From sequence record NC_048186.1: a stretch of 64,000 bases of DNA; one strand, written 5' to 3'. Positions 12,303 through 50,471 of this stretch are shown here, in pieces. Position numbers and translations under genes: made by a program. The notes beneath the pieces are model-generated. The model was given only the letters and a program-made list of their open reading frames with translations. It was not told the DNA's origin and searched no databases. Numbering within the stretch: the first letter of the stretch is position 1; every line of letters starts with the position of its first letter. The stretch is from Escherichia phage vB_EcoM_KWBSE43-6.

Positions 12303-12359
12303 CTATTTTTGTCAAAGGGAAACAACAAGGGGAATTATATCCCCCTGTCGGTTATTGAA

Positions 12360-18622: not shown

Positions 18623-18654
18623 GTCAGTGATCCTCAGTGTGGATTATGGGGTAT

Positions 18655-19122
18655 TTAGGCTTCCCCCGTCCGCACCGCGATACCAGATTTGTATAACACC
18701 ATCTCAACAATCATCGTATCGTCTAGAGAAACAACAGAGTCATAACCCATATCCATCAAAGCACGAGCATTTTCATGAACAGTACCCGGAGGAATATCCA
18801 ATTCCCTCATCTTGTCTTCCCAAACGGATACATTATTGGAATGTAGGACCAGAGTTCTCCGAGGATTCACCCTAAAGACAAGAACATGTGGTTCACCAAA
18901 CTGGCGATAACGAGTAGCATTTTCCGCATACTGAAGAGCGACTTCTGGTTTTCCTGACAGATAGAACCCCGGCCCCATTGTCCCGGCGTCAGTCTGTCCA
19001 AACTTCTTAAAGTCGAATTCATCAAAAACAACATTGGATCCATGATACAACTCCAAATTTGTCATATCTGGGACGGCATCATGATAAAAGAATTCCAAAA
19101 AGGTTTTCATAAAATACCCCAT
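18655..19122 (-). CDS. hypothetical protein; possible ADP-ribosyltransferase-like fold
   Basis: 155-aa ORF; N-terminal YHGS motif followed by GPGFYLS; weak motif-level resemblance only. Confidence 0.4.
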   Translation of the reverse strand: MGYFMKTFLEFFYHDAVPDMTNLELYHGSNVVFDEFDFKKFGQTDAGTMGPGFYLSGKPEVALQYAENATRYRQFGEPHVLVFRVNPRRTLVLHSNNVSVWEDKMRELDIPPGTVHENARALMDMGYDSVVSLDDTMIVEMVLYKSGIAVRTGEA

Positions 19123-19150
19123 ACGGATTGTATGGGGTATTTAGGAGGGA

Positions 19151-21348: not shown

Positions 21349-21415
21349 TATTTCCTCAAATCAATGTTAGGGGTTTAACGGTTAAATTTTAAACCCCTTT
21401 GTTTGATTGAACAAA

Positions 21416-22307: not shown

Positions 22308-22381
22308 TGGAAGGAGCACCAGGATTCGAACCTGAGATCATGGGATCAAAGCCCATTGCCTTACCGCTTGGCTATGCTCCT
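22308..22381 (-). tRNA. tRNA-Gln (anticodon UUG), CCA encoded
   Basis: Manual cloverleaf: acceptor AGGAGCA/TGCTCCT, D-loop GCCAAGCGGTAAGGC, anticodon loop CUUUGAU, T-loop TTCGAAT. Confidence 0.8.
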
Positions 22382-22541
22382 AAAATTGGGAGAGGTACGC
22401 CAGAGTCGAACTGGAAACAGTATTTGACTGGATTATTTGCATTTAGGCCAGTCATCCCCTGTCTTTTGATCTCCACCCCATCTGCGGCCTGGTGCCGGAT
22501 GCACCCAACATTCAGGTTGCGGGAGAACATACCCCTTAATT

Positions 22542-22625
22542 TGGTGAGGGAGGATGGATTCGAACCACCGAAGCCGAAACACCTGATTTACAGTCAGGCC
22601 CATTTGACCACTCTGGTACTCCCCC
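22542..22625 (-). tRNA. tRNA-Tyr (anticodon GUA), long variable arm, CCA encoded
   Basis: Manual fold: anticodon arm CCTGA-CUGUAAA-TCAGG, long variable arm, T-loop TTCGAAT. Confidence 0.75.
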
Positions 22626-23043
22626 GAATTTGGACGGGCTTCTCACCCGATTGTGCATTTGATCTGCCGTAGCCCAACTCCCCGCGTCGTAACGCCGATT
22701 GGTTAACTGGCACCAGTGCCTTCTGGTGTGATCCCTTGGAACTTTACAGGCTTCGCGCCAAACCATTTCTGGTAGTTGGGGCATCGTTTCCGATGTAGGG
22801 TTCCCCCATTTTAACACAGCTGGCTGCAACGCTTACTGTGTTTGTATCAGAGTGTCCGGTGTAGCATTCCGTGAGGTGCGCACTACTGTAGCCTCTACAC
22901 TCTGAATTTGTATGAAGTGGGAATCACTCTCCTGGGTGTCTGTATCCTGCGGCCTTACATTGGCAGCTATCGCGCGATTCGCACTTCCGAAGGCGCTTTG
23001 AGACACTCCACTTCAATTTGATGATGCCACACCACGTCTGGTT

Positions 23044-23114
23044 TGTTGAATCCAGGATTCGAACCTGGGATACCTGCCTTACAGGCGAGTCGCTTTGCCT
23101 CAGCGTTATTCAAC
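23044..23114 (-). tRNA. tRNA, identity uncertain (anticodon loop CUGUAAG, possibly GUA; one mismatch in anticodon stem)
   Basis: Acceptor GTTGAAT/ATTCAAC, T-arm CCAGG-TTCGAAT-CCTGG; anticodon stem imperfect, could be a pseudo-tRNA. Confidence 0.5.
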
Positions 23115-23239
23115 TGGCACCAATTTGGTGGGCGTTACTTTCGTCGGTTTCAGATTCCGTTCGGCTATTGGACGTTGTTCCAAAGAACTTGTCGGTCGCG
23201 TACTTCGTGCTTACTCGCTTTCGTTTCACACCCATTGTC

Positions 23240-23315
23240 TGGCGATGGTGGCAGGACTTGAACCTGCGACATATGGATTAACAGTCCACCGTTCTACCGA
23301 CTGAACTACACCATC
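23240..23315 (-). tRNA. tRNA-Asn (anticodon GUU), CCA encoded
   Basis: Acceptor GATGGTG/CACCATC, D-arm GTTCAGTCGGTAGAAC, anticodon loop CUGUUAA, T-loop TTCAAGT. Confidence 0.8.
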
Positions 23316-23322
23316 ATCAATT

Positions 23323-23409
23323 TGGCGGAAAGTCTGAGATTCGAACTCAGGGGGCATTACACCCGACGATTTTCAAGACCGTTGCCTTAAACCGCTCGGC
23401 CAACTTTCC
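23323..23409 (-). tRNA. tRNA-Ser (anticodon UGA), long variable arm, CCA encoded
   Basis: Acceptor GGAAAGT/ACTTTCC, D-loop GCCGAGCGGTTTAAGGC, anticodon loop CUUGAAA, variable arm CGGGTGTAATGCCCC. Confidence 0.8.
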
Positions 23410-23415
23410 TTTGTA

Positions 23416-23501
23416 TGGTGGAAGATACAGGATTCGAACCTGTGCAACCTTTCGGTTGTACACCTTAGCAGGGTGCTGCAATACCGCTCTGCCAATCTTC
23501 C
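23416..23501 (-). tRNA. tRNA-Ser (anticodon GCU), long variable arm, CCA encoded
   Basis: Acceptor GGAAGAT/ATCTTCC, anticodon loop CUGCUAA, long variable arm, T-loop TTCGAAT. Confidence 0.75.
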
Positions 23502-23692
23502 TATTTATTCGCTTCTATGGCTCGAAGTTGCTTCTCAGCGTCTTCTTTGGATTCATGTGTTCCCAAAACCTTTGTTTTGGTATGGTCCAACACAACCCAA
23601 TGATCACCACGCTTTTCAACAAACTCAACAATTTCTTTGTTGTCAGTCGCAAGACCATCCCATTCAGTTAAGAACTCACCGAACGTTTTCAT
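23501..23692 (-). CDS. small hypothetical protein embedded in tRNA cluster
   Basis: ORF track 23501..23719 (non-ATG start); likely start MMKTFGEF at 23692; protein-like composition. Confidence 0.5.
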   Translation of the reverse strand: MKTFGEFLTEWDGLATDNKEIVEFVEKRGDHWVVLDHTKTKVLGTHESKEDAEKQLRAIEANK

Positions 23693-23919
23693 CATACTCA
23701 CCAATCGTTTATTGAACAACTGGTTTATTTAGGTGCTCCCGAGGCGGTATTTTAATCCCGCGATCCCATCTCGCCTGCCGTAGACCAGAGCTTGTTGGCA
23801 GTCCAACAAATTTGGCGGGGTCTGAGGATTTTCACCTCACCTGCTGGATTGGCCTCCAGCCGTTCTCTCTGGGGACTCGCCGTCCGGACAGCTATCCCTT
23901 AAACTATCGCCCCTTAATA

Positions 23920-23995
23920 TGGTGATCCTGATTGGTTTTGAACCAATGACCAATCGATTATGAGTCGACTGCTCTAACCACTGAGCTACAGGACC
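23920..23995 (-). tRNA. tRNA-Met/Ile-type (anticodon CAU), CCA encoded
   Basis: Acceptor GGTCCTG/CAGGATC, D-arm GCTCAGTGGTTAGAGC, anticodon loop CUCAUAA, T-loop TTCAAAA. Confidence 0.75.
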
Positions 23996-27232: not shown

Positions 27233-27539
27233 AATAAGATCCTCTTGTAGAATTGAAATAAACGCCATCATTATAATAGAACGATTGTTATTGAATATTG
27301 GTCTCTAAATTACAGGAGTGTTTTATTAATAGGCAGAAACTACTTTTCTAACACATCTCTAGACTGTATGCTAACGCTGTGCCCTTCGAGTTGTGAGTGT
27401 CAACGAACAACGAGAAGCAGCCTCCCTGGCTGTGGAAGGGTGCCAGCCCGCACAGGGCGGTCTTACGAGCGAAGCGAGTTGATTAATATATTTGATAATA
27501 ACGCGCGCGAGAGTAAATTCCTTTCTCTGTCTTCAACAG

Positions 27540-27546
27540 CTAAATA
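27540..27546 (+). promoter_or_regulatory. late-promoter-like motif CTAAATA
   Basis: Motif about 40 nt upstream of the baseplate wedge start; same heptamer recurs upstream of at least nine other plus-strand structural genes. Confidence 0.35.
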
Positions 27547-27586
27547 TCTCCAACACCATATTCAAACTTGTGTGACGGAGATCAAC

Positions 27587-29368: not shown

Positions 29369-30203
29369 TAACGGACATCTGGGCGTCAAATATGAGACGC
29401 CGTTGTTCTACCAGAACGATTTCCCTCTGTTCATTGAGTTCATGGATACGTTCTTCAATTGGCTGTATCGCCAAAACGGTTTCACTGAAGAAGAAATCCT
29501 TGCTTACCTGGCGGACACCAGTTGGCTGAATCCGGCTAGTGACGCCAGCCCGCTGATGCAGCTGGTAGACCTGAAGATACAGAAGACGCCCGGTACTGCT
29601 GTGCGTGATATGCTCCTCGACAAATATCTGGTCAGGACATTTGAGCAAATGATGGCGCTTGATACTGAAGAATTGTTGGACTCTGATGGGCGTCCTCTAT
29701 TTTCACCTGAAGACAAGAATTCAAGTATTGATGCCTGGTATAAAGAATTCGGGTTTCAAAGAACGGTTGACAAATCTTTTCCTGAATTTGGGTTCTTTGT
29801 ACCAGAAGGATCTGATGGTCTTATTACAGCGGATGGCAACCAGTTCTCGGTTTATATCGAGGGAACGCGCCGCCGGACATTAGATCACACCCGCTGGCTG
29901 AAATTGTTGAAGCATATCTATAAAATACGGGGAACGCAGAAAGCAATAGAATTGTTCTTCTGGATTTATTTCGGTGTTCCAGTTACTGTATATTATCCGA
30001 AAGAAGATTTGGCTGGTTTGGATGCTAACTTTGATTGTGATGGTGAAGTTGGTCTTCGTGATGATTACTACTATGACGAATACACATATGTCATAAGAAT
30101 ACCTGGCGACGTCGCAGATTTCGAAGGTGTATTCGATCGCGTGTTCCGTCAACACTTCCATCCATCTGGTTTCAAAGTATTCCTCGAAAGCACTAGGAGT
30201 TAA
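29352..30203 (+). CDS. baseplate/tail structural protein, hypothetical
   Basis: 283-aa ORF overlapping the end of the gp6-like gene; placement in baseplate module. Confidence 0.5.
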   Translation: MSKDLNNGHLGVKYETPLFYQNDFPLFIEFMDTFFNWLYRQNGFTEEEILAYLADTSWLNPASDASPLMQLVDLKIQKTPGTAVRDMLLDKYLVRTFEQMMALDTEELLDSDGRPLFSPEDKNSSIDAWYKEFGFQRTVDKSFPEFGFFVPEGSDGLITADGNQFSVYIEGTRRRTLDHTRWLKLLKHIYKIRGTQKAIELFFWIYFGVPVTVYYPKEDLAGLDANFDCDGEVGLRDDYYYDEYTYVIRIPGDVADFEGVFDRVFRQHFHPSGFKVFLESTRS

Positions 30204-30207
30204 GAAA

Positions 30208-31461
30208 ATGGCTGATTATCTGAGCAAATATACAGGCCAGCAGATAGATAGTATTCTAGATGCGGTCGATGGAAAACTGAACAAAACTGATGTCGTGAAC
30301 GATATCACGGTAGATGACGACCTGTCCCCGGCGTCAGCACACCTTACGTTCGTCTTAAAATCTGCTATCGATACAATGAACGATGTTTTGACCAACAAAG
30401 TTGTTCGTACCGATGGGCAAGAACAAACGATAAACGGGAAAAAGACTTTTGCGTCTGTTCTGAATGCAAATGGTGGCATCGTAGTCCCGGCCCAACGCTC
30501 TATAACGATCACGGATGAACCTGCGGCCAACACGGATGCGGTGAACCTCAGCATGTTGAAAAAACATGGGCTGAGCACTGTGGATTCCGTTGGTTCTGGT
30601 TCTGGTCTGAAGATTTCGTTGCTTTCCAATGGTTACAACAAATTGGAAGTCGATCTCTCTAATCTTGTCGTGAGGACAGACACAGCGCTCCCTCAATCGC
30701 TGGCTGTGTATTCACCCACAGGTGGGTCACAAATATGGTCTATGACAAGCCTGTTCAACAGTTTTTTCGCTGACACTCGTTTCAACGACTACGTGAAGGT
30801 CGTGGAATATGATTCAGATATGCTGAACATTGAAACGCAATTCACTAGCGTCAACAACCGCATAAATCTGAAACTGGATACTGCGACATATACGACGAAA
30901 ATGACCAGTCTGGATTCTCAGATAGCGAATTTACAATCTGGGAAAGTGGATAATACGACGTATACGGCGAAAATGACAAGCCTTGACAGTCAAATCAGCG
31001 GCCTGTCTACGAATAAAGTTGACAAATCGACGTATGACACCAAAATGGCTAGTTTAGACGGTCAAATCAGTGATCTGACTACAAACAAAGTCGATGTGTC
31101 GACGTACACTACTGATATGAACGCCTTGAATTTGGCGCTGGCGGGTTCGGTGAAATTGGCTAAAACCAACACCACCAGTGTTTCTGTCCCGGCTTCTGGT
31201 AGTGCTGCGTTACCTGATTTCACTTTGGTGAATCTGTGTCAAATTTTGATTACAGCCAAATGGGGTACATTGGTTGATACGTTCTTGGTCACAATGACGT
31301 ATGACGGTACTCTTCAGGCAACGTCATTGACACAAAAAAGTACGGCGGGGACTTTGTCGTTCGCAGGTTCTGTTGTTTCAGGTAAACTACGCCTGACAAT
31401 GACCAATGCTAATACAACAACCGCAGCATCTGTCGATTATTCACTTCGTGCTTCTTTCTAA
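30208..31461 (+). CDS. tail fibre protein with tandem 24-aa repeats
   Basis: Start MADYLSKYTGQQ with AGGAG SD; three and a fraction tandem repeats YTxKMTSLDSQIxxLxxxKVDxxT. Confidence 0.65.
   Translation: MADYLSKYTGQQIDSILDAVDGKLNKTDVVNDITVDDDLSPASAHLTFVLKSAIDTMNDVLTNKVVRTDGQEQTINGKKTFASVLNANGGIVVPAQRSITITDEPAANTDAVNLSMLKKHGLSTVDSVGSGSGLKISLLSNGYNKLEVDLSNLVVRTDTALPQSLAVYSPTGGSQIWSMTSLFNSFFADTRFNDYVKVVEYDSDMLNIETQFTSVNNRINLKLDTATYTTKMTSLDSQIANLQSGKVDNTTYTAKMTSLDSQISGLSTNKVDKSTYDTKMASLDGQISDLTTNKVDVSTYTTDMNALNLALAGSVKLAKTNTTSVSVPASGSAALPDFTLVNLCQILITAKWGTLVDTFLVTMTYDGTLQATSLTQKSTAGTLSFAGSVVSGKLRLTMTNANTTTAASVDYSLRASF
30889..31140 (+). repeat. tandem in-frame 72-nt repeat (about 3.5 copies) inside tail fibre gene
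   Basis: Copies begin at 30889, 30961, 31033, each starting tatacg/tatgac...aaaatg. Confidence 0.7.
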
Positions 31462-31468
31462 ATCTTAA

Positions 31469-31509
31469 ACTAAATACCCCTAGACGATTACATGTGCTAG
31501 GGGTATTTT
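31469..31509 (+). promoter_or_regulatory. CTAAATA motif embedded in a 12-bp leader hairpin immediately upstream of tailspike start
   Basis: aaatacccctag...ctaggggtattt stem ending 4 nt before ATG 31513; no SD between hairpin and ATG. Confidence 0.4.
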
Positions 31510-31512
31510 CAA

Positions 31513-34500
31513 ATGGCTAATAAACCCACGAAACCAAATTTTCCGCTTGGGCTTGAATCACAAGATCAATCCGTATTTCAAGAAGGTATTCTGAATAATG
31601 GTGTTGTAGAACATGGCCCAGATGCGGTAATGACTGTGCCAGAAACTCCTGACGCATCTGGGGTTCCTTCTGCTGTCCGTTATAACGAAGATGACGACCA
31701 GTTTGAAGGCTATTACAACGAAGGCGGTTGGTTGCCGCTTGGGGGTGGTAACGGTGGGCGCTGGGAACTCCTTCCGCATGCCCCCTCTTCCTTGTTACAG
31801 CTCGGTCGTGCATATCTGGTGGATAACACTGACGGTGCCTCTACGGTGGTTTTCCCTCCCCCTAAACGGGTTGGTGATAGCATCACTGTGTGTGACCTTT
31901 TTGGTAAATTCTCAACTTATCCTCTGACTGTTGACGGTAACGGTAAATCGATCTATGGCTCTGCGGATAGCATGACGATTTCTACCGATAACGTCAGCGC
32001 GACGTTTACGTGGACTGGTGAATCCCGTGGCTGGGTTATTACATCAGGCGTCGGTCTGGGACAAGGCCGGGTTTATAGTCGCGAAATTTACAGCCAAATT
32101 CTGTCAGCGACAACACCATCTATTACCCTGAGCACTCAACCATCTATTGTAGATGTGTATGTTGACGGAAAACGTTTGAAAGAATCCCTGTATACTCTCG
32201 ACGGGTATGAAGTTAAATTCGATCCGGCGCTGGCCTCTGGTTCTGATGTGCAGATTATTCAGTACATCCCAATTCAGCTCGGCGCGGGCGGTGGGGGTTC
32301 TGGTGGAACTGTAATCACCTGGGAATACAACGGCGGCTCAGCTATCGGCGGAGAAACCCAAATCGTGTTGGATGTGGTCGTGGACTCAGTATCTGAGATC
32401 TACATCCGTGGTTCCCGTCAACAGATAGGGCGCGGGTTCACATTTGATCCTGCCACCAGTACGATTACCTTGGCGGATGAACTGGATGCCGGGGATGACG
32501 TTGTCGTCGTTATCAACGGTGACCCAACGGTCTACAACCAAATAGATCGCACTCCTTGGGAAGTTGCTCGGGCGTTTAACGTCTCAAATAACAGCGTCAT
32601 TATGAGCAATGACAGGAATACTACCCTTGACGGGAAAACGATAGTATACGATATTAACAGTCAAAACTCTTGGGAAATTCCTGCTGGTATTCCTGTTGGC
32701 GCTAAAATATCAAGTGTTTCTTCAGGGATTCTTGTGTACACCCCTGGTAACGTCAGTGTCACATTGACATTGTTGACGACGGGTACTACTGTTCTGAAAC
32801 GCCTCGCCAATAGCAATTCTGGTAACGGCGGTGATATGGTTCTTTACAAAGCATCTTCAAATGCTGTGGAAAGAGCTATTTCTATGGCGTTGAAAGATTT
32901 TGTAAACCTCCATGATTATTATCTGTCTTCTGATAACGGAGATTGGTATCCTGCATTTAACAGGGCTTTCCAAGATTCCCAAAATATTTTAGTTCCTTAT
33001 GGTTCTCATGTTGTCAAAACCACGGTTGTTCCACCATCCAATTCAAAAATAATTGGTCTTGGGGAAGCCAGTATCGTTAAATCACCAGATGCGATTGACG
33101 CCGCCGCCACAAACCTCGTTACCGTGTTTCGGGCTACTGGTTCAGATAATATATTGATTTCTGATATTACAATAGATGGTGGTGTTAACGAAGTCAACAC
33201 CGCCAAATCCTTTACACGAACTGTAAGGTTCATTAATTGTACCAACGTGTCGTTGCTGAGGGTTCGAGTATTAAACAACGCGGATTGGTCGACATCGTTC
33301 GAAGGCGGTCATGACTTTACGGTGAAGAATTATTACCAAAGATCGTATCGTTATCAGAACACTGCTATCAATTTGAATGGTGGACGTGATGGCCTACATT
33401 TCATGGATTGTTATAATGTGAATGCAGACGGCCTTGACATAGAATCTGGTGATGATTGCGTGGGTATCACCACTACTGGTACAGATCTTGAAAATATCAC
33501 GATTCGTAACCTGTGGGGTTCATCCAATATTGCTTCTCTCGTTATTTTTAACGAAGAAAAAGATTCTAACGATGTGTACTATTCAGCTAATGTCACTGGA
33601 TTGAATATTAGTGGTATCAGGATCAAGAAAGGCGGCAACGCTCGAAATATCGTCAGGGTTATAGGATACGGTGCCAACACCCAAATCAAAGATGTTTCAA
33701 TCTTGGATGTAAGGGGAAAAGCCTTTAACTCTTATGGTATTTGGGTGCAAGGTAGCGTTGACCATCCAGTAGACACAGTACACATAAGCAATTCAGACGT
33801 TGGTTCACAACAGGCCCACGGCGTTCTGTTGCAGAATATAAAACGTTTGTCCGGTAACGTCTATGGTTATTATGAGGGTGTGAATTCTTCCGCTTCATTT
33901 GTTGGTGTGAACATGGTTTCGATCACTGGTGCGATGTTCACTCCAGGTTCTAGAAGTTCTTACGGGTATGGTGTACAAGTTCTGACCAGTAAAGATATCG
34001 TGCTGACACCTGATATCGAAAGTTGCGGCGCTGGGTTGTTCAGCTCTGCTTCTGGGGGTAATTTACGAATAGTAAACTGTGATGGTGTAACCATACCTTA
34101 TGGCCGTGCCGTCGGGGACGTGGCTGTCAGCTATTGGGGTATCAACTTCGGTGGAAATACAAATTTAGACGTGGGTCTGGAATTCGTGTTTGGTGGGTTT
34201 ACCAACTCGTCTCTCCCGAACTCTTATTATTTAAAAGCCCCAGCAGTTGATATCAAATGGAAAGAAGCGTCTGACGGGACTGTGACTATGAGTATCGCTC
34301 GTGGCGCCAGTATAGTCAGAAACAGCCAAGGCAATTTTACAATAACGTTCAACAATGATATGCGCAGTACATTGTTTTCTTGGCAGGCGACCGCCTATCA
34401 CAATGGCGCGTTACGTTTAGTTCGTCTTGCTTCTGCTGTGGGGACTAAAACGATGACGATACAAGTAACGGATACGGCAAATGCCGCGACGTTCGCTGAT

Positions 34501-34542
34501 TTTATAGAATTGAAAGCGTTTAACACTGCTACAGGATCTTAA
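31513..34542 (+). CDS. tailspike / tail fibre protein with beta-helix (pectate-lyase-like) repeats
   Basis: 1009-aa ORF; Gly-rich linker GAGGGGSGG; repetitive NxSGIRI / DVSILDV beta-helix-like coils. Confidence 0.75.
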   Translation: MANKPTKPNFPLGLESQDQSVFQEGILNNGVVEHGPDAVMTVPETPDASGVPSAVRYNEDDDQFEGYYNEGGWLPLGGGNGGRWELLPHAPSSLLQLGRAYLVDNTDGASTVVFPPPKRVGDSITVCDLFGKFSTYPLTVDGNGKSIYGSADSMTISTDNVSATFTWTGESRGWVITSGVGLGQGRVYSREIYSQILSATTPSITLSTQPSIVDVYVDGKRLKESLYTLDGYEVKFDPALASGSDVQIIQYIPIQLGAGGGGSGGTVITWEYNGGSAIGGETQIVLDVVVDSVSEIYIRGSRQQIGRGFTFDPATSTITLADELDAGDDVVVVINGDPTVYNQIDRTPWEVARAFNVSNNSVIMSNDRNTTLDGKTIVYDINSQNSWEIPAGIPVGAKISSVSSGILVYTPGNVSVTLTLLTTGTTVLKRLANSNSGNGGDMVLYKASSNAVERAISMALKDFVNLHDYYLSSDNGDWYPAFNRAFQDSQNILVPYGSHVVKTTVVPPSNSKIIGLGEASIVKSPDAIDAAATNLVTVFRATGSDNILISDITIDGGVNEVNTAKSFTRTVRFINCTNVSLLRVRVLNNADWSTSFEGGHDFTVKNYYQRSYRYQNTAINLNGGRDGLHFMDCYNVNADGLDIESGDDCVGITTTGTDLENITIRNLWGSSNIASLVIFNEEKDSNDVYYSANVTGLNISGIRIKKGGNARNIVRVIGYGANTQIKDVSILDVRGKAFNSYGIWVQGSVDHPVDTVHISNSDVGSQQAHGVLLQNIKRLSGNVYGYYEGVNSSASFVGVNMVSITGAMFTPGSRSSYGYGVQVLTSKDIVLTPDIESCGAGLFSSASGGNLRIVNCDGVTIPYGRAVGDVAVSYWGINFGGNTNLDVGLEFVFGGFTNSSLPNSYYLKAPAVDIKWKEASDGTVTMSIARGASIVRNSQGNFTITFNNDMRSTLFSWQATAYHNGALRLVRLASAVGTKTMTIQVTDTANAATFADFIELKAFNTATGS

Positions 34543-34543
34543 C

Positions 34544-34780
34544 ATGAATATAAATTGTGTTTTTGTGAAAGACGAAATTCCCCTTGAGAAACAAGATGAC
34601 TTTTTGAAATTATTTTTGGAAAGAATATCATTGGAATTCTCTGATGTCGTGATAACGGCAGAATGGGGAGACGATGAAACTGCTGTCGTTTCAGAGGATT
34701 GTTCTGATTACGTCAAAGCAAATTATCAAAGATTTGTAGACGGTCTTAAACAAGACCTCATTATTTTCGATTATTTCTAA
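34544..34780 (+). CDS. small acidic hypothetical protein
   Basis: 78-aa ORF starting 2 nt after tailspike stop. Confidence 0.45.
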   Translation: MNINCVFVKDEIPLEKQDDFLKLFLERISLEFSDVVITAEWGDDETAVVSEDCSDYVKANYQRFVDGLKQDLIIFDYF

Positions 34781-34819
34781 ACTAAATACCCCATATTGGT
34801 AACGCCTTATGGGGTATTT
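34781..34819 (+). promoter_or_regulatory. CTAAATA motif embedded in an 11-bp leader hairpin immediately upstream of tailspike start
   Basis: aaataccccat...atggggtattt stem ending 4 nt before ATG 34823; no SD; near-identical architecture to 31469-31509. Confidence 0.4.
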
Positions 34820-34822
34820 CAA

Positions 34823-37402
34823 ATGGCCAGAAACATAGAAGAAATTTTCGGTGGGGTAGTCGTAGCACCACACCAGATCCCGTTCACGTACACTTCAACA
34901 AACGGTGGGGAAACTTTTATATCTCTGCCATTTTATCCCATCACCGGGTTCGTTACTATCAACGGTGGTGTACAGGTCCCTCTTGACAATTTCGAAATAG
35001 ACGGAAACACATTAAATCTTGGTCGAGAACTGGATCCAAGTGATGTTGTGTTCTGTTTGTTCGATAAAATCATGTCACCTCAAGATGCCAGTAACAACGC
35101 AGTTCGAGTTTATAAATTCATCTCTGTTGGAGGAGAAACGGAATTCACTCCAGATTTTACGGCGTATGGTGTCCAATCTCTTTATATCAATGGGAAATAC
35201 CAAATAGCTGGTGAGGATTACACATATTCTAAGACAGATGGGAAAGTTTCTTTTACTACCCCATTAGTTACTGGAGTATGGGTTGCAGCTGAGATGAACA
35301 TAAAGCAAAATATCCCCGCTTTAGCTGGCAATAATGGCGCATCACAAATCGGAACAGAATCAGGGCAAAATGTTCAATTAGAACTCGATTCATTCCGTAA
35401 TTTGTTCGGGGAATATGGGTTTAGCATGATAGGGCAAACCACATATCAAGGATTGAGGAATTATAACGGCAATTCCAATTATATGATGATATATGGTAGA
35501 TCCTATCTTCTAGATGGTGGTCATGGTATATTTGATTTAGTTCCTGGCGGTAATGCCATGACAACCCCTGACGATGATTGTGTGCATATTCGAGATACGT
35601 TGGGGCGGTTATGGCGTCGTAGATTTGAAGACAATGTCATAAGAATGAGCTGGGCGGGTGCTAAAAACCAATTAGAAACATCATCACCACAAGATGATGC
35701 TTTCAGGAACTGCCTGCTTGCGGCCAAATCGTTGTCTCCTACTGGTTATCCACAATCAATCATTAAAGGATTAGACCGTGGTGTAGTTTATCTTGCAGAG
35801 CGGCATTATATCCGTTGTGGTAATTTCCCTGAATATATGGCGTGGAAATTGCCACCTACTGGTGGTGGTGACCGTTTTGGGCTGGATCTGCTGTGTGCAT
35901 TGGGAGAAGGGGCGGGGTTCTTTATCGTCCAAGCTAATAACCCATTGTTGCGCGTCCGGGTAGACAACACTGGTATCCCATTCAATGTTTCGAATTATAC
36001 TGATGCCCAACTTGTGAGTATAGTTGAGAACAATTATATCTTACGTTTGGAATCAATGGTGAACGCTCCGGAATTCGACGTTCATCCAGGTAATTATCCC
36101 GGTACTGTTCTTTACAGCACGGGTAAAAAGGATTATTCTGCAGTAACTGCACAATGGCCTGATTTGGTCCAAGTCTTACCGTCTATACAGAACGTCGGTA
36201 ACGCGGTGTTTAACATAAAAAACTGTGGTCGAGATTTTATGTTAACCAATACTGGGGCTGGGTTGGGTCATTTTCATTCCGTTTGGTCACAAAATAACCG
36301 ACTCCCTGGTTATATATCGAACTGCTATGATTTAACGATGACATATGAAGATTATGTCCCACACAACGAAACATCTGGTGGATTGATATTTAGTGAATGT
36401 GGCACTCTTTCTTTAGAAAATATTTTGATTGGCGCAGGTGGGGTAGGACATTTGTGTATATGGGATTGCCGTAACGTCCATATGAACCGTCATATCTCTA
36501 TATGTGGTAATACCACTTGGGCTGCATCTAACCAAGTAGATGATCTTTATGCTTTAGAAATTTGTAACTCCGAAGTTCATATGAGCGGCGTGCATGCTCA
36601 AAACTCTGGTAAATTCGCACGTGTAGGATTCAATTCACAATTAACGGTTGATCACCTTACTGCATGGGATGTTTCAAAATTATTCTTGATGACGAATGAT
36701 TTGACTAAATTGAAATATCGTGGGCAGCGGCAGGCTGTTACAGGGGACCCGAGCCGGATTTATGTGACATCAGGATTCGCTCAAAACCTTAACGCATCTC
36801 AGTTCGGTTGGGCTTGTGCTCCTGTAATAGAAATCGACAGCACAGTTAACGGTGATTTCAAATTTTATTGGAATTGCTGGACCAATAACGTTCATGCAGG
36901 GTATGGATCTGAATCTGAAGCAAATCTTGCTATTATTAGCGTGGCTTCTACAAGTTCTACAGGATCTGTGTCATTCGGCGAAGACGCTAAATTGGAAGGT
37001 AATACGACGAACTACGTCCTTCGTCTTGCAAACAAAAACCAATTGGGGAAAGTGCGCACTCGTCAAACATCTTTCTGTCGTGTACGTTATACCAATGACA
37101 ACTCACAGTCATCTTTTGCAATGCGCGAAGCTGCTCATGACAATGGAACTACTGTGATCCCTATTGACGGAACAACATACAGCTATCCGTACCGCAGACC
37201 TGCTAAATATTTCGTATCTTTAAACGTCCCTGCTGGTGGTGGTTCATGCTCAGTGACATTAAACGGTATGACGATTTTCCAAACTACGGTAGTCGGGACA
37301 CATGGTATAGTTATTGAAATGAAATACCAAGAAACCGTCGTGTTTACGTCATCCAACGTTACTGTATCGAATGCGCAGTGGCGTTATATTTTGGAGGAAT
37401 AA
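34823..37402 (+). CDS. tailspike protein (beta-helix)
   Basis: Start MARNIEEIFGG (ORF track start 34796 is an upstream extension); large beta-rich repetitive protein in tailspike array. Confidence 0.7.
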   Translation: MARNIEEIFGGVVVAPHQIPFTYTSTNGGETFISLPFYPITGFVTINGGVQVPLDNFEIDGNTLNLGRELDPSDVVFCLFDKIMSPQDASNNAVRVYKFISVGGETEFTPDFTAYGVQSLYINGKYQIAGEDYTYSKTDGKVSFTTPLVTGVWVAAEMNIKQNIPALAGNNGASQIGTESGQNVQLELDSFRNLFGEYGFSMIGQTTYQGLRNYNGNSNYMMIYGRSYLLDGGHGIFDLVPGGNAMTTPDDDCVHIRDTLGRLWRRRFEDNVIRMSWAGAKNQLETSSPQDDAFRNCLLAAKSLSPTGYPQSIIKGLDRGVVYLAERHYIRCGNFPEYMAWKLPPTGGGDRFGLDLLCALGEGAGFFIVQANNPLLRVRVDNTGIPFNVSNYTDAQLVSIVENNYILRLESMVNAPEFDVHPGNYPGTVLYSTGKKDYSAVTAQWPDLVQVLPSIQNVGNAVFNIKNCGRDFMLTNTGAGLGHFHSVWSQNNRLPGYISNCYDLTMTYEDYVPHNETSGGLIFSECGTLSLENILIGAGGVGHLCIWDCRNVHMNRHISICGNTTWAASNQVDDLYALEICNSEVHMSGVHAQNSGKFARVGFNSQLTVDHLTAWDVSKLFLMTNDLTKLKYRGQRQAVTGDPSRIYVTSGFAQNLNASQFGWACAPVIEIDSTVNGDFKFYWNCWTNNVHAGYGSESEANLAIISVASTSSTGSVSFGEDAKLEGNTTNYVLRLANKNQLGKVRTRQTSFCRVRYTNDNSQSSFAMREAAHDNGTTVIPIDGTTYSYPYRRPAKYFVSLNVPAGGGSCSVTLNGMTIFQTTVVGTHGIVIEMKYQETVVFTSSNVTVSNAQWRYILEE

Positions 37403-37404
37403 TA

Positions 37405-37704
37405 ATGATTAAAGCAATCAAAGGGGATTTCACTGCTGTAACTTCAGTAGGAGAAATTTCATATCAATACGCTACTGTCCAGACTTTTCGGGGAGATGCA
37501 ACGAGCGTGACCGTAGATGTATTTCTTTCCGATCGCTGGATTATCCAACGGGACGGGATCAATGTGGTAGATGATACTGCGCCTGGATTTTTCAAATCTG
37601 TACAGTTTGCTCCTGATTGGCAGAGCAGTTTGAATATCATAGATCAGGCTTATGAATATTTGAAAAGTCTTCCAGAGTTTTCAAATTCTACTGATGTTGT
37701 ATAA
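37405..37704 (+). CDS. hypothetical small protein
   Basis: Start MIKAIKGDF with GGAGG SD. Confidence 0.5.
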   Translation: MIKAIKGDFTAVTSVGEISYQYATVQTFRGDATSVTVDVFLSDRWIIQRDGINVVDDTAPGFFKSVQFAPDWQSSLNIIDQAYEYLKSLPEFSNSTDVV

Positions 37705-37738
37705 AGTTAAGGGGGCTAGACCCCCTTAACTTATTTTT
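37705..37738. terminator. bidirectional terminator hairpin
   Basis: agttaagggggctagacccccttaact followed by tatttttc. Confidence 0.65.
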
Positions 37739-37976
37739 CTATTTGTACAACAATCCCGTTTTCTTTTAAAACAGCTTCCAATTGCTCAATATGTAGCCTT
37801 AAATTTGAGTAGACGGTCGCTGCGATCAAAATTTCTTCACTTAATTTAACAGGTGAGTGAAGTGCGTCTATGTTAAAATTTCCTCCTGACGCAATAACTT
37901 TTCCATCTTCGTTAAATGTGTAGATGCAAGGATCTGGTTTATTTTTCTTAATCTTTATCAGTATTTCTTGTTTCCC
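37731..37976 (-). CDS. small protein on opposite strand within tailspike cluster
   Basis: ORF track 37731..38096; likely start MGKQEILIK at 37976 with GGAGA SD; flanked by bidirectional terminator. Confidence 0.45.
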   Translation of the reverse strand, partial: GKQEILIKIKKNKPDPCIYTFNEDGKVIASGGNFNIDALHSPVKLSEEILIAATVYSNLRLHIEQLEAVLKENGIVVQIEK

Positions 37977-38049: not shown

Positions 38050-38056
38050 CTAAATA
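38050..38056 (+). promoter_or_regulatory. late-promoter-like motif CTAAATA
   Basis: Located 39 nt upstream of ATG 38095. Confidence 0.35.
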
Positions 38057-40101: not shown

Positions 40102-40347
40102 ATGCAAAATTCGGCTATGCGTGATGCGTTATCTCTATTTTATGCTTTATACGACTATTTGGTAAACAAAGTGGAATTGACAGAAACAGAAGAATCTGTC
40201 AAATCTAAAATAGAACAAGATATGGGGATACGTTGTGATGATTCATTGGATGAGCAAATCCTACAACTGCAATCAGAACTAAACCAAGCAGTTGAAGAGG
40301 GAGAACGTCACCAAATCTTAGATAATGTGGTTGAACTTTTGAAATAA
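40102..40347 (+). CDS. small helical hypothetical protein
   Basis: 81-aa ORF followed by terminator. Confidence 0.45.
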   Translation: MQNSAMRDALSLFYALYDYLVNKVELTETEESVKSKIEQDMGIRCDDSLDEQILQLQSELNQAVEEGERHQILDNVVELLK

Positions 40348-40349
40348 CA

Positions 40350-40375
40350 AAGCCCCTTCGGGGGCTTTTCTTTTG
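40350..40375 (+). terminator. rho-independent terminator
   Basis: agccccttcgggggct followed by tttcttttg. Confidence 0.65.
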
Positions 40376-40381
40376 AACAAA

Positions 40382-42706: not shown

Positions 42707-42961
42707 ATGTATACCATACATAAAATTCCTTGTGACATAGTCTACAATTCTTTGTTAGAGCATCATAAGTTTTTCATATCTTTAAAGAAAGATTTGGCAA
42801 AGCGTATTAAGAATTCTACGTCAGGATTCAAATATGAAAATTTCAAATTTTGTTATGACAAAGATGATGTAAATCAATATTATCTAAAATTAGATTCAAA
42901 ATGTCGTGACTTTGAAACCCAATTAAACGAAATTTGGTTTCATTCAGTACACCAACAATGA
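42707..42961 (+). CDS. hypothetical small protein
   Basis: ORF track 42686..42961; ATG 42707 has GGAG SD. Confidence 0.4.
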   Translation: MYTIHKIPCDIVYNSLLEHHKFFISLKKDLAKRIKNSTSGFKYENFKFCYDKDDVNQYYLKLDSKCRDFETQLNEIWFHSVHQQ

Positions 42962-43238: not shown

Positions 43239-43265
43239 TAGCCCCCTCGGGGGCTTTATTCTTCA
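43239..43265 (+). terminator. rho-independent terminator
   Basis: agccccctcgggggct followed by ttattcttc. Confidence 0.6.
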
Positions 43266-49796: not shown

Positions 49797-49827
49797 CGAC
49801 TAAATACCTTCAAAATTGAGGGTATAG

Positions 49828-50471
49828 TCATGGCCACTTCAAAATATTTCAACTACACGAACCACCAAGGCACGCAGAAGTTAATTGATGACCTCGTGGT
49901 GGAGATGATACAATTACGTGGGATCGACGTCAAGTATATTCCACGCGCCATTTATGAAAAATACCCAATTTTAAACGAAGCCGAACATCGTTTCGACCAG
50001 GCGTTTGATATTGAGGTCTATATGCAGGATTATCAGGGCTTCAACACCCAAATGTGGGAGAAGTTCGGTGGTATCCAGCTACAAGATGAGGTGACATTTA
50101 CTATCGCCCGTCGCCGCTTTGCGGAAGTTATTGGTAACGGACCAGGACTGGATCAACAACCTCAGGAAGGGGATCTCATTTATCTTCCGATGGCGAATAA
50201 AATATTCAAGGTCAATAACCCGAATAATGACGAAGACTTCATGCAATTCGGTAAATGGTACACGTATTCATTACCATGTACCTTGTTCCAGTATGGCAAC
50301 GAAGACTTCGATACTGGTGTCCCTGAAATTGATGATATTGATAAACGTCTTCAAGATCTTGAAGGTGATGGGGTTTACCAGGATGCTACTCTCCAAACAG
50401 ACAACCAGTTTGCTGATGAGATCGAAGAAGATCTGGCCCCCAATAATGTCAAAATAGATTTTGGAGAATAA
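49828..50471 (+). CDS. neck protein (T4 gp14-like by position)
   Basis: Start MATSKYFNYT with GAGGG SD (ORF track start 49716 is an upstream extension). Confidence 0.5.

What the first reader, a model, noticed from the sequence alone, without database searches (positions are those of the whole stretch)
31469..34822. Conserved 11-12-bp leader hairpin covering a late-promoter-like motif, directly upstream of two tailspike start codons with no Shine-Dalgarno
Upstream of both the 31513 and 34823 genes the sequence AACTAAATACCCC(loop)GGGGTATTT(T)CAAATG recurs. The CTAAATA motif forms one arm of a stable hairpin whose 3-prime arm ends 4 nt before the ATG, and there is no SD. This could be a combined terminator/promoter, an RNA processing site, or a translational control structure specific to these two genes.
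Basis: seen in the sequence. Interest (0 to 1): 0.6.

Follow-up and report, generated by a model that had tools for sequence, protein, structure and literature searches.

The report
Late promoter hidden inside RBS-masking hairpin
Two tailspike genes of this Klebsiella phage, and at least three or four other late genes nearby, start just after an RNA hairpin whose first arm is the phage's late-promoter motif and whose second arm is the ribosome-binding site, a gene-control trick already known from phage T4 and here conserved across a second phage family.

Summary
AACTAAATACCCC-loop-GGGGTATTT(T)CAA-ATG occurs at 31469-31515 and 34781-34825 and folds into 12-14-bp hairpins of about -19 kcal/mol. 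(1) "No Shine-Dalgarno" is wrong: GGGGU in the 3' arm pairs with the anti-SD as strongly (-6.0 to -6.5 kcal/mol) as the median gene in the window (-5.9), at normal spacing, so the 3' arm is the SD. (2) It is not specific to these two genes: a third CCCC/GGGG copy lies at 19144-19108 (-), and 6 of 14 gene-proximal CTAAATA sites in the window have a hairpin pairing the promoter's -5..-1 bases with the SD. The window is a Klebsiella Ackermannviridae (Taipeivirus-like) phage. The hairpins are conserved in five genera, with variable loops and covarying distal stems. CTAAATAcCcc is a published regulatory motif of this group. Best explanation: the phage T4 gene e / soc / 49 / I-TevI mechanism. Transcripts from the gene's own late promoter start after the 5' arm and have a free SD, while read-through transcripts fold and mask it. 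No transcript ends were mapped. In LIMEstone1 the endolysin gene has the same module. Verdict: a new member of a known kind, of moderate interest.

The parts
31470..31476 (+). Site 1 late-promoter-like element CTAAATA (predicted -12..-6). The CCCC at 31477-31480 occupies -5..-2. Predicted late start is about 31482.
   Evidence: -12 rule for CTAAATA from PMC1524935
31472..31485 (+). Site 1 hairpin 5' arm AAATACCCCTAGAC (anti-SD CCCC)
   Evidence: MFE -18.6 kcal/mol, z -3.8
31494..31508 (+). Site 1 hairpin 3' arm GTGCTAGGGGTATTT, containing the SD-like GGGGT at 31500-31504
   Evidence: (anti-SD duplex -6.5 kcal/mol)
31513..34542 (+). Tailspike/tail protein gene (1009 aa, MANKP...) with a large conserved N-terminal anchor region
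   Evidence: (phrog_9383, phrog_7992 tail spike)
34782..34788 (+). Site 2 late-promoter-like element CTAAATA. The upstream ORF stops at 34778-34780.
34784..34795 (+). Site 2 hairpin 5' arm AAATACCCCATA
   Evidence: MFE -19.2 kcal/mol, z -3.0
34808..34819 (+). Site 2 hairpin 3' arm TATGGGGTATTT, with SD-like GGGGT at 34811-34815
   Evidence: (-6.0 kcal/mol)
34823..37402 (+). Second tailspike gene (859 aa, MARNI...). The ATG at 34809 inside the 3' arm is out of frame in this window, so 34823 is the start.
19112..19144 (-). Site 3, same module on the minus strand: CTAAATA 19144-19138, 5' arm 19142-19130, loop 19129-19125, 3' arm 19124-19112, GGGGT 19120-19116
   Evidence: (-19.0 kcal/mol, z -4.6)
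18655..19110 (-). Gene served by site 3 (151 aa, MKTFL..., phrog_4700). Its LIMEstone1 ortholog ORF173 is a proteomically confirmed virion protein.
27540..27586 (+). Further member upstream of the baseplate-wedge (gp6-like) gene: CTAAATA 27540-27546, anti-SD ATCTCC 27546-27551, pairing with the canonical SD GGAGAT 27577-27582, ATG 27587
   Evidence: (-14.9 kcal/mol, z -3.4; SD zone unpaired 0.21 then 0.69)
49800..49829 (+). Further member: CTAAATA 49800-49806, 5' arm ATACCTTCA 49804-49812, 3' arm TGAGGGTAT 49817-49825 (SD GAGGG), ATG 49830. Its LIMEstone1 ortholog ORF151 is a confirmed structural protein annotated 'head closure Hc2'.
   Evidence: (-14.6 kcal/mol, z -6.0)
23696..23732 (-). Weaker candidate member: CTAAATA 23732-23726, arms 23724-23715 and 23709-23700 covering TGGTGAG, ATG 23695. 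It also overlaps an early-type TTCAAT-N14-TATGAT match.
   Evidence: (conserved in LIMEstone1 ORF167)
18648..18658 (-). Comparator (site 4): exact CTAAATACCCC with no 3' arm, an ordinary GAGGA SD and ATG 18622. It shows that the motif alone does not make a hairpin.
   Evidence: (z +0.4)
37704..37742 (+). Comparator: canonical GC-rich intrinsic terminator after the second tailspike unit. Similar ones lie at 40349-40378 and 43240-43265, each followed by a separate CTAAATA (40382, 43287) and a normal SD. A further unmasked CTAAATA at 38050 serves the third tailspike gene.

Best explanation
Each element is a late-promoter-embedded hairpin that masks the ribosome-binding site, as in phage T4 genes e, soc, 49 and I-TevI.

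- CTAAATA is the -10-type element read by the phage's gp55-like late sigma factor.
- The four or five bases that follow it (CCCC, or TCTCC / CCTTC at other sites) lie at -5..-1, so they are not transcribed from the gene's own promoter.
- Together with AAATA they are complementary to the Shine-Dalgarno (GGGGU, or GGAGA / GAGGG) and its 3' flank.

Inferred consequences.
- RNA that starts at the gene's own late promoter begins about 6 nt after CTAAATA. It lacks the 5' arm, is unstructured, and exposes the SD 6-9 nt before the AUG.
- RNA that enters from upstream carries both arms. It folds into a hairpin of about -19 kcal/mol that buries the SD, so the cistron is poorly translated. In this phage it may also be partly terminated.

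Shown here: the sequences, the fold energies, the SD pairing energy, conservation and covariation, and the genome-wide association of masking with CTAAATA.
Inferred: that CTAAATA is the late promoter, where transcription starts, that read-through RNAs exist, and the effect on translation.
For: 1. Structure. With the 5' arm the three CCCC/GGGG sites fold at -18.6, -19.2 and -19.0 kcal/mol (z -3.0 to -4.6). RNAs starting just past CTAAATAcccc have no significant structure, z > 0. SD-zone unpaired probability is 0.00-0.22 in long RNA and 0.57-0.69 in predicted late RNA.

2. The 3' arm is the SD. The anti-SD duplex is -6.0 to -6.5 kcal/mol against a window median of -5.9.

3. CTAAATA behaves as a promoter.
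- 16 copies against 6.2 expected; 14 of them lie 29-49 nt upstream of a gene start on the same strand.
- LIMEstone1 annotators marked the orthologous positions 'putative late promoter'.
- CTAAATA at -12 is the predicted Aeh1 late promoter (PMC1524935).
- Relatives encode gp55-, gp33- and gp45-like proteins (PMC3184105).

4. Association. 6 of 14 CTAAATA genes have SD accessibility <=0.22, against 2 of 31 other genes (Fisher p=0.007). The five most masked SDs in the window are all CTAAATA genes.

5. Conservation. Sites 1, 2 and 3 are present in Taipeivirus, Limestonevirus, Kuttervirus and Agtrevirus, and site 1 also in Miltonvirus. Loops vary and distal stems covary: CCCCTAG/CTAGGGG, CCCCTAGAT/ATTTAGGGG, CCCCTAATG/CATTAGGGG. 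In the pooled pair count, the three pairs distal to CCCC/GGGG are paired in 23 of 23 sequences with 3-4 pair types each. The covariation score is 0.247 against 0.086 in shuffles (0 of 500 reach it) and exceeds all slid controls. The G.U pairs are valid only on the sense RNA.

6. CCCC is kept only where it pairs. The hairpin-less site 4 is CTAAATAGTCC in PhaxI. Unmasked promoters have no C-rich -5..-1.

7. Independent genome. In LIMEstone1, 7 of 21 [C/T]TAAATA sites are masked (8 once the gp6 start is corrected), including the endolysin gene, the gene class of T4 e.

8. Generality. The same module with CCTC...GAGG or CCCC...GGGG occurs in other viral contigs directly before start codons: 33 of 58 and 24 of 56 sequence classes, against a 10% baseline (p 4e-19 and 3e-10). 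The genes are homing endonucleases and a resolvase of T4-like cyanophages.

9. Precedent. The mechanism is documented experimentally for T4 (PMC3014915 section 29; PMC2988022 section 12).
Against: - No transcript 5' or 3' ends and no translation data exist for this phage or, as far as I could find, for any Ackermannviridae.
- The start-site position is extrapolated from T4 and Aeh1.
- For the two tailspike sites, the only upstream same-strand promoter I can see is another late one (27540). The masking there would therefore not be early-versus-late as in T4, and its benefit is unclear.
- The gp6 site (27540) has no same-strand gene upstream at all, so the source of read-through RNA is unknown.
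- Any C-rich stretch will pair with a purine-rich SD, so the 4-5-nt core on its own is weak evidence. The case rests on the extended stems.
- The pooled covariation comes from about 4 paralogous sites, so there are few independent events.
- In this phage the tails (UAUUUUCAA) allow some intrinsic termination.
Confidence: 0.6

Rival explanations
1. The main role is as an intrinsic terminator, or 3'-end stabilising hairpin, for the upstream transcription unit. It overlaps the next gene's promoter for compactness, and the SD pairing is incidental.
For: - The stem has a CCCC/GGGG core followed by TATTTT(CAA) in this phage and an A-tract upstream.
- The hairpins sit 2-11 nt after the stop codon of a co-directional ORF.
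- The LIMEstone1 authors' terminator finder probably called the endolysin and ORF129 hairpins as terminators. Those features appear in the record about 30 nt offset.
- Some non-phage-related hits to the same pattern are plain terminators with no start codon after them.
Against: - The U-tract is not conserved in orthologs (TATTACAA, TATCAAA, TATCTATG, TATTAAAC), whereas the GGGG-to-ATG spacing of 5-10 nt is.
- The loops of sites 1 and 2 are 8-13 nt.
- The scanner called neither these sites nor site 3, but did call the canonical terminators at 37704, 40349, 43240 and 18166.
- Det7 carries a canonical terminator about 40 nt upstream of the hairpin within the same repeated cassette.
- A start codon 1-10 nt after the stem forces the SD into the stem, which an ordinary terminator does not do.
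- The two roles are not mutually exclusive.
Confidence: 0.2
2. The hairpin is part of the gene's own mRNA leader, because transcription starts upstream and CTAAATA is not the promoter or not the only one. It would act as a 5' stabiliser and a translational switch opened by a phage factor, by temperature, or by ribosomes finishing the upstream ORF (translational coupling).
For: - The stop codon of the upstream ORF lies 2-11 nt before CTAAATA. At site 2 a terminating ribosome would cover most of the 5' arm.
- LIMEstone1 encodes a RegA-like translational repressor.
- No start site has been mapped.
Against: - The anti-SD bases always occupy exactly -5..-1 of a CTAAATA element at six different sites with different sequences. 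This is unexplained unless the start site matters.
- CTAAATA sites without hairpins show the same close spacing to upstream stop codons.
- The gp6 site has no upstream ORF to couple to.
Confidence: 0.1
3. It is a DNA-level inverted repeat, an operator for a dimeric DNA-binding regulator that occludes the late promoter. It would be comparable to I-TevI autorepression at its late promoter.
For: - There is a perfect 9-bp inverted repeat, AAATACCCC / GGGGTATTT, overlapping the promoter.
- T4 I-TevI binds an operator overlapping its own late promoter (PMC2988022).
Against: - The distance between the half-sites varies from 5 to about 22 nt between sites and genera.
- The distal stem covaries rather than being conserved.
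- G.U pairs (9 cells) would be A.C mismatches on the other strand.
- Other members use unrelated arm sequences such as TCTCC/GGAGA and ACCTTCA/TGAGGGT.
Confidence: 0.04
4. It is an RNA processing site, cleaved by RNase III or a similar endonuclease, that cuts polycistronic late RNA into monocistronic units.
For: It is intergenic and lies between co-directional late genes. T7-type phages use intergenic hairpins in this way (from general knowledge, not tested here).
Against: - The stems are 12-14 bp, shorter than the roughly two helical turns typical of RNase III substrates.
- There is no match to any Rfam family.
- This reading does not explain why the 3' arm is the SD or why the 5' arm is the promoter.
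Confidence: 0.05

Closest known systems
Phage T4 late-promoter / RBS-sequestering hairpins (genes e, soc, 49, I-TevI, I-TevII, I-TevIII, segB; Aeh1 mobE)
   Same: - A gp55-type late promoter lies in the DNA that encodes the 5' strand of a stable hairpin.
- The hairpin buries the SD and/or the AUG in longer transcripts.
- Late transcripts start too far downstream to form it (PMC3014915 section 29; PMC2988022 section 12).
- Aeh1 uses the same CTAAATA late-promoter variant (PMC1524935).
- In LIMEstone1 the endolysin gene has the module, as T4 e does.
   Different: - It occurs in a different family (Ackermannviridae).
- The SD at three sites is a G4 run paired with CCCC.
- The targets here are tailspike, baseplate, neck and virion-protein genes that sit inside late operons, so the upstream RNA is probably also late rather than early or middle.
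- About a third of late-promoter-like sites carry it (6 of 14 in the window; 7-8 of 21 in LIMEstone1).
- Nothing has been tested experimentally.
'CTAAATAcCcc' regulatory motif of ViI-like phages ('Viunalikevirus'; cited in PMC7283392)
   Same: It is the exact motif. There are 4 copies in this window, and the EspM4VN paper lists 5 per genome.
   Different: The papers I could read list it only as a motif. Here the 'cCcc' extension is explained as the anti-SD arm of a hairpin. It is conserved where a GGGG partner exists and lost in PhaxI where none exists. The paper that defined the motif (PMC4174289) is not held, so I could not check whether it mentions a hairpin.
Rho-independent (intrinsic) terminators
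   Same: A G+C-cored stem-loop followed by a T-rich tail in this phage, placed right after a stop codon.
   Different: - The T-tract is not conserved.
- The loops are long at sites 1 and 2.
- A start codon follows within 1-10 nt.
- Canonical terminators exist separately in the same loci.
PeSL-type mobile regulatory cassettes of T4-type phages (promoter plus stem-loop repeats flanking variable genes; recalled from memory, Arbiol et al. 2010, not read here)
   Same: A short repeated promoter-plus-stem-loop unit precedes variable, exchangeable genes. In Det7, a cassette of about 97 nt (terminator, CTAAATA hairpin, SD) is duplicated at about 90% identity before two tailspike genes.
   Different: PeSLs carry early promoters. 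Here the promoter is late and the stem-loop includes the SD. No evidence of mobility or recombination at the cassette was obtained. Between this window and UPM 2146 the homology break lies about 400 nt inside the tailspike gene, not at the hairpin.

Membership tests
T4-type late-promoter-embedded RBS-sequestering hairpin | A gp55-type late-promoter element immediately upstream of the regulated gene | tested here: met
   - CTAAATA lies 43, 41 and 34 nt before the ATG.
- The motif is enriched (16 against 6.2 expected), and 14 of 16 copies are positioned upstream of genes.
- Orthologous positions are annotated 'putative late promoter' in LIMEstone1.
- This is sequence-level evidence only.
T4-type late-promoter-embedded RBS-sequestering hairpin | A stable hairpin in longer transcripts that sequesters the SD and/or start codon | tested here: met
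   About -19 kcal/mol with z -3.0 to -4.6. SD-zone unpaired probability is 0.00-0.04. GGGGU is the SD.
T4-type late-promoter-embedded RBS-sequestering hairpin | Late transcripts start within or after the 5' arm and so cannot form the hairpin | not testable with these tools
   Predicted from the 'C at -12' rule (PMC1524935): +1 at about 31482, 34794 and 19132, which excludes CCCC. Folding of such RNAs shows no structure. This needs 5'-end mapping.
T4-type late-promoter-embedded RBS-sequestering hairpin | Upstream-initiated transcripts read through into the gene | tested here: inconclusive
   - Co-directional upstream ORFs end 2-11 nt before the motif with no predicted terminator between them.
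- An early-type TTCAAT-N14-TATAAT match at 21411-21386(-) could feed site 3.
- For sites 1 and 2, only the late promoter at 27540 is visible upstream.
T4-type late-promoter-embedded RBS-sequestering hairpin | The phage encodes the T4-type late transcription machinery (gp55, gp33, gp45) | tested here: met
   Met in relatives only. LIMEstone1 is annotated with a late sigma factor (ORF091), gp33 (ORF053) and gp45 (ORF120). Kutter et al. 2011 report homologs in CBA120, ViI and AG3. These genes were not looked for in this 64-kb window.
ViI-like 'CTAAATAcCcc' regulatory motif | Exact motif, a few copies per genome, in an Ackermannviridae genome | tested here: met
   4 exact copies. The window is 96% identical to Taipeivirus UPM 2146. 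The motif is cited in PMC7283392.
Intrinsic terminator | A short G+C-rich stem with a 3-8-nt loop, immediately followed by a conserved U-tract | tested here: not met
   - The stem requirement is met.
- The loops are 8 nt (or 13 nt without the two inner pairs) and 12 nt at sites 1 and 2.
- The scanner does not call sites 1-3.
- The U-tract is present here but not conserved in orthologs.
- Partial termination in this phage is not excluded.
RNase III processing site | About 20 bp or more of double-stranded RNA | tested here: not met
   12-14 bp. No Rfam match.
Mobile promoter/stem-loop cassette (PeSL-like) | A repeated cassette flanking variable genes, with recombination junctions at the cassette | tested here: inconclusive
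   A duplicated cassette of about 97 nt is present in Det7. In this window only 20 nt is shared between sites 1 and 2. The homology break against UPM 2146 lies inside the gene, not at the cassette.

The most novel reading that the evidence does not exclude
The promoter-plus-masked-RBS unit (with a canonical terminator in Kuttervirus) is a portable insulator cassette. It would make each tailspike gene an autonomous unit with one promoter and one cistron: translationally silent in any foreign or read-through transcript, and expressed only from its own late promoter. That would fix tailspike stoichiometry independently of genomic context. It would also help explain how Ackermannviridae gain, duplicate and swap tailspike genes so freely, with the cassette itself serving as short homology for recombination.
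Probability: 0.15. Interest if true: 0.55.

Novelty: new member of a known kind. Interest (0 to 1): 0.35.

Why it matters
- It gives a mechanistic reading of a named but unexplained family-wide motif. In CTAAATAcCcc, the 'cCcc' is the anti-SD arm.
- It suggests that T4-style control by transcript origin extends to a second phage family. There it covers structural and lysis genes at roughly a third of late-promoter-like sites, not only a few toxic genes.
- It has practical uses. It identifies the true start codons of tailspike genes that public records place inside the hairpin.
- It tells people engineering Ackermannviridae tailspike cassettes that promoter, hairpin and SD form one about 45-nt unit that must be moved intact. 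One published engineering study carried over 'the promoter for tsp2 of Det7' (PMC11414711).
- It is not a new principle.

Tried and rejected
- Rfam scan of the whole window: only 7 tRNAs, nothing at the hairpins.
- Sigma-70 promoter scan: the number of matches is not above shuffles near sites 1 and 2, so there is no evidence for early promoters there.
- Terminator scan: it does not call sites 1-3.
- Relaxed NTAAATA search in the window: no further masked sites.
- 'Site 5' gene (MNAQI..., hairpin-preceded in LIMEstone1 and others): no homolog in this window.
- Translational coupling: the distance from stop codon to motif does not distinguish hairpin promoters from non-hairpin promoters.
- Literature: no paper in the library links the motif to a hairpin, and none reports Ackermannviridae transcript mapping.
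- Papers not held: Adriaenssens et al. 2012 (PMC4174289) and Gibb & Edgell 2007 and 2009 (PMC1913452, PMC2655525).
- Raw hit counts of the two collection scans were not used as evidence. By my rough estimate (the collection size is not given), an 18-base pattern with 28 allowed spacings should occur by chance some tens of times in a collection of this order. Only the enrichment of start codons after the stem was used.
- DNA-operator and RNase III readings: rejected on variable arm spacing, G.U pairs and stem length.

Full report
**What the window is.**
The region 30000-36000 is 96% identical to Klebsiella phage UPM 2146 (Ackermannviridae, Taipeivirus) and about 90% identical to many other Klebsiella Ackermannviridae. 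The two genes named in the finding are tailspike/tail proteins:
- 31513-34542, 1009 aa, with a large conserved N-terminal region;
- 34823-37402, 859 aa.

They follow a baseplate-wedge (gp6-like) gene and two other structural genes on the same strand. Two further tailspike genes follow them, at 38095 and 40429.

**The observation.**
- Site 1: CTAAATA 31470-31476, 5' arm AAATACCCCTAGAC 31472-31485, 3' arm GTGCTAGGGGTATTT 31494-31508, ATG 31513.
- Site 2: CTAAATA 34782-34788, 5' arm AAATACCCCATA 34784-34795, 3' arm TATGGGGTATTT 34808-34819, ATG 34823.

As RNA they fold at -18.6 and -19.2 kcal/mol (z -3.8 and -3.0). CTAAATACCCC occurs 4 times against 0.6 expected, and GGGGTATTT 7 times against 0.45 expected. 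The other two CTAAATACCCC copies are on the minus strand.
- At 19144-19108 the same module recurs: CTAAATACCCCATAC-aatcc-GTATGGGGTATTT-t-ATG, -19.0 kcal/mol, z -4.6. It precedes a 151-aa gene.
- At 18658 the motif has no 3' partner, no structure (z +0.4) and an ordinary GAGGA SD.

**Correction 1: there is a Shine-Dalgarno, and it is the 3' arm.**
GGGGU pairs with 5'-ACCUC-3' of the 16S 3' end through four Watson-Crick pairs and one G.U pair. The duplex energies are -6.5, -6.0 and -6.0 kcal/mol for sites 1-3. The median for 58 crude gene calls in the window is -5.9. The run lies 5-10 nt before the ATG in every ortholog examined. So the hairpin pairs the SD with the promoter-proximal CCCC.

**Correction 2: it is not specific to two genes.**
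I folded every gene-proximal CTAAATA leader in the window in two forms. The 'read-through' RNA included the motif. The 'late' RNA started at the 6th nt after CTAAATA, following the rule given for Aeh1 in PMC1524935. Six of 14 leaders have a hairpin whose 5' arm starts in or just after the motif and whose 3' arm covers the SD:
- 31470, 34782 and 19144(-);
- 27540 (gp6-like gene), where ATCTCC pairs with the canonical SD GGAGAT, -14.9 kcal/mol;
- 49800, where AUACCUUCA pairs with UGAGGGUAU, -14.6 kcal/mol, z -6.0;
- 23732(-), which is weaker.

The mean unpaired probability of the SD zone is 0.00-0.22 in the long RNA and 0.57-0.69 in the predicted late RNA. Among 45 genes, the five least accessible SDs all belong to CTAAATA genes. 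The split is 6 of 14 against 2 of 31 at <=0.22 (Fisher p=0.007). In all six, the anti-SD bases occupy -5..-1 of the promoter. Promoters without masking (38050, 40382, 43287, 54056, 58856, 60059, 42418, 18658) have ordinary SDs, and all except 18658 lack a C-rich -5..-1.

**Is CTAAATA the late promoter?**
The evidence is indirect but consistent.
- The heptamer occurs 16 times against 6.2 expected. Fourteen copies lie 29-49 nt upstream of a same-strand gene start, mostly structural genes.
- The LIMEstone1 record annotates the orthologous positions as 'putative late promoter'.
- CTAAATA starting at -12 was derived as the late promoter of Aeromonas phage Aeh1.
- CTAAATAcCcc is quoted as one of 'two unique regulatory motifs' of this phage group (PMC7283392).
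- ViI-like phages encode gp55, gp33 and gp45 homologs (PMC3184105). LIMEstone1 annotates a late sigma factor, gp33 and gp45.
- No start site has been mapped.

**Conservation.**
The module precedes the MANKP-type tailspike gene in Taipeivirus (UPM 2146, IME250), Limestonevirus (LIMEstone1), Kuttervirus (Det7), Agtrevirus (Gloob) and Miltonvirus (3M). It precedes the M(A/T/S)RN-type tailspike gene in all of these except 3M, with two copies each in Det7 and Gloob. Site 3 is conserved in LIMEstone1, PhaxI and 0507-KN2-1.

Loops vary freely. Site 3 loops are AATCC, GACCA, AACCA, AGCAA and AGTAA, while the stems hold. The distal stem changes in a pair-preserving way: CCCCTAG/CTAGGGG, CCCCTAGAT/ATTTAGGGG (G.U), CCCCTAATG/CATTAGGGG (G-C to A-U, U-A to G-C), and ATAC/GTAT to ATAC/GTGT.

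In a pooled, loop-trimmed alignment of 23 distinct sequences from four site classes:
- the three pairs distal to CCCC/GGGG are formed in 23 of 23 sequences, with 3-4 pair types each;
- the covariation score is 0.247, against 0.086 +/- 0.017 in shuffles (0 of 500 reach it), and exceeds every slid control.

Two caveats apply. These are about four paralogous sites, so independent events are few. The basal nine pairs never vary, because the 5' side is the promoter.

The G.U pairs would be A.C on the opposite strand, and the arm spacing varies from 5 to about 22 nt. Both argue for a sense-strand RNA structure rather than a protein-bound DNA palindrome.

Where no hairpin exists (site 4), CCCC is not conserved: it reads CTAAATAGTCC in PhaxI.

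**Replication in another genome.**
In LIMEstone1 (150 of 152 kb), 21 [C/T]TAAATA sites precede ATG-ORFs and 7 show relieved masking:
- the two tailspike genes (ORF160, ORF159);
- ORF173 and ORF129, both proteomically confirmed virion proteins;
- ORF167 and ORF063;
- the endolysin ORF070 (TTAAATACCTTCGC-attca-TTGCGGAGGTATTT-tcttATG, -18 kcal/mol).

The gp6 gene becomes an eighth once its start codon is set correctly.

**Generality beyond the family.**
Two collection scans were run: CTAAATACCCC-N3-30-GGGGTAT and the canonical-SD version CTAAATACCTC-N3-30-GAGGTAT. They return many contigs in which a start codon with an ORF of at least 50 aa follows within 10 nt of the stem:
- 24 of 56 non-Ackermann classes (p 3e-10);
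- 33 of 58 classes (p 4e-19);
- both against a baseline of about 10% at random positions in the same loci.

The downstream genes include several GIY-YIG and HNH homing endonucleases. They also include a 'RusA-like' resolvase of T4-like cyanophages such as S-PM2, whose loop varies (GAAA, AAAA, TATAT, CAAAA) around constant arms. These are the gene classes T4 controls this way. Classes are not fully independent, and the raw hit counts are near what chance would give, so only the start-codon enrichment counts as evidence.

**Mechanism.**
The arrangement matches what is documented for T4. Reviews describe inhibitory structures at the initiation regions of e, soc, 49 and I-TevI. In these cases:
- the SD and/or AUG is buried in long early or middle transcripts;
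- the late promoter lies in the region encoding the 5' strand (PMC3014915).

The same holds for I-TevII, I-TevIII, segB and Aeh1 mobE (PMC2988022).

I therefore take the tailspike leaders to be the same device. My confidence is 0.6, because the start site, the read-through RNA and the translational effect are all inferred.

One thing differs, and I cannot explain it. Upstream of sites 1 and 2, the only visible same-strand promoter is late (27540). The discrimination would therefore be by transcript origin rather than by time. For site 3, an early-type TTCAAT-N14-TATAAT match at 21411-21386(-) could supply early read-through.

**The terminator rival.**
In this phage the tail after GGGG is UAUUUUCAA, so some termination is plausible. 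The two functions can coexist. Termination is not the conserved property, for three reasons.
- The tails decay in other genera.
- The loci use separate canonical terminators elsewhere (37704, 40349, 43240, 18166).
- In Det7, a duplicated cassette of about 97 nt places a canonical terminator (CCCCGCcgaaGCGGG-TTTCTT) about 40 nt upstream of the CTAAATA hairpin.

**Novelty.**
I found no paper in the library that links the motif to a hairpin, or that maps Ackermannviridae transcripts. The paper that defined the motif could not be read. The principle is well known, so I rate this a new member of a known kind, with moderate interest (0.35).

Noticed in passing
L001 13810 (UPM 2146 gp205); L006 11033 and 13266 (Gloob gp167, gp166); L006 4103 and L004 4091 (gp6 homologs); window 19122: Public annotations place several start codons inside the hairpin: ATGGGGTAT... 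in the 3' arm, or TTG in the loop. Others lie upstream of the SD-masked true start. In this window the arm ATG at 34809 is out of frame with the tailspike ORF, which shows that the conserved start is the ATG just after the hairpin. At site 3 an in-frame ATG at 19122 in the arm is GTG in other genera.
   Followed up: partly
LIMEstone1 NC_019925.1 54223-54250 and 92858-92885 (L226): Two 'putative factor-independent terminator' features cover unstructured sequence (-4.9 and -0.1 kcal/mol). They lie about 30 nt downstream of the real hairpins at the endolysin and ORF129 starts. This looks like a coordinate offset for minus-strand features.
   Followed up: partly
L004 (Det7) 11392-11488 and 13628-13725: A cassette of about 97 nt (canonical terminator, spacer, CTAAATACCCC hairpin, SD) is duplicated at about 90% identity in front of two tailspike genes. 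A 242-nt repeat at 73% identity also links gene 206 to gene 207.
   Followed up: partly
window 22311-23995 (-): A cluster of 7 tRNA genes on the minus strand. The candidate hairpin/promoter at 23732 and an early-type promoter match (23716-23691) lie within it.
   Followed up: no
window, e.g. 12334-12359 (-), 27270-27295 (-), 21386-21411 (-): The second published ViI-like motif, TTCAAT-N14-TATAAT, is enriched: 22 matches with up to 2 mismatches against 9.2 expected. Two exact copies are both on the minus strand, one in the divergent region upstream of the gp6 gene.
   Followed up: no
window 34544-34780, 37405-37704, 40102-40347, 42707-42961: Each of the four tailspike genes is followed by a small ORF of about 80-100 aa. 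These are annotated as hypothetical proteins in UPM 2146, and the first has no PHROG match. Their role is unknown.
   Followed up: no
L010, L031, L039, L045, L048, L114 (T4-like cyanophage contigs): A 110-aa 'RusA-like' resolvase gene of S-PM2-type cyanophages is preceded by CTAAATACCCC-(4-5 nt loop)-GGGGTATTTTTT-ATG. The loop varies among relatives while the arms stay constant.
   Followed up: partly
L022 4428-4465, L063: The same CCCC/GGGG module sits directly before a family-B DNA polymerase gene (855 aa) in an unidentified viral contig. This is an unexpected target for a late-promoter device, and it may simply be a terminator there.
   Followed up: no
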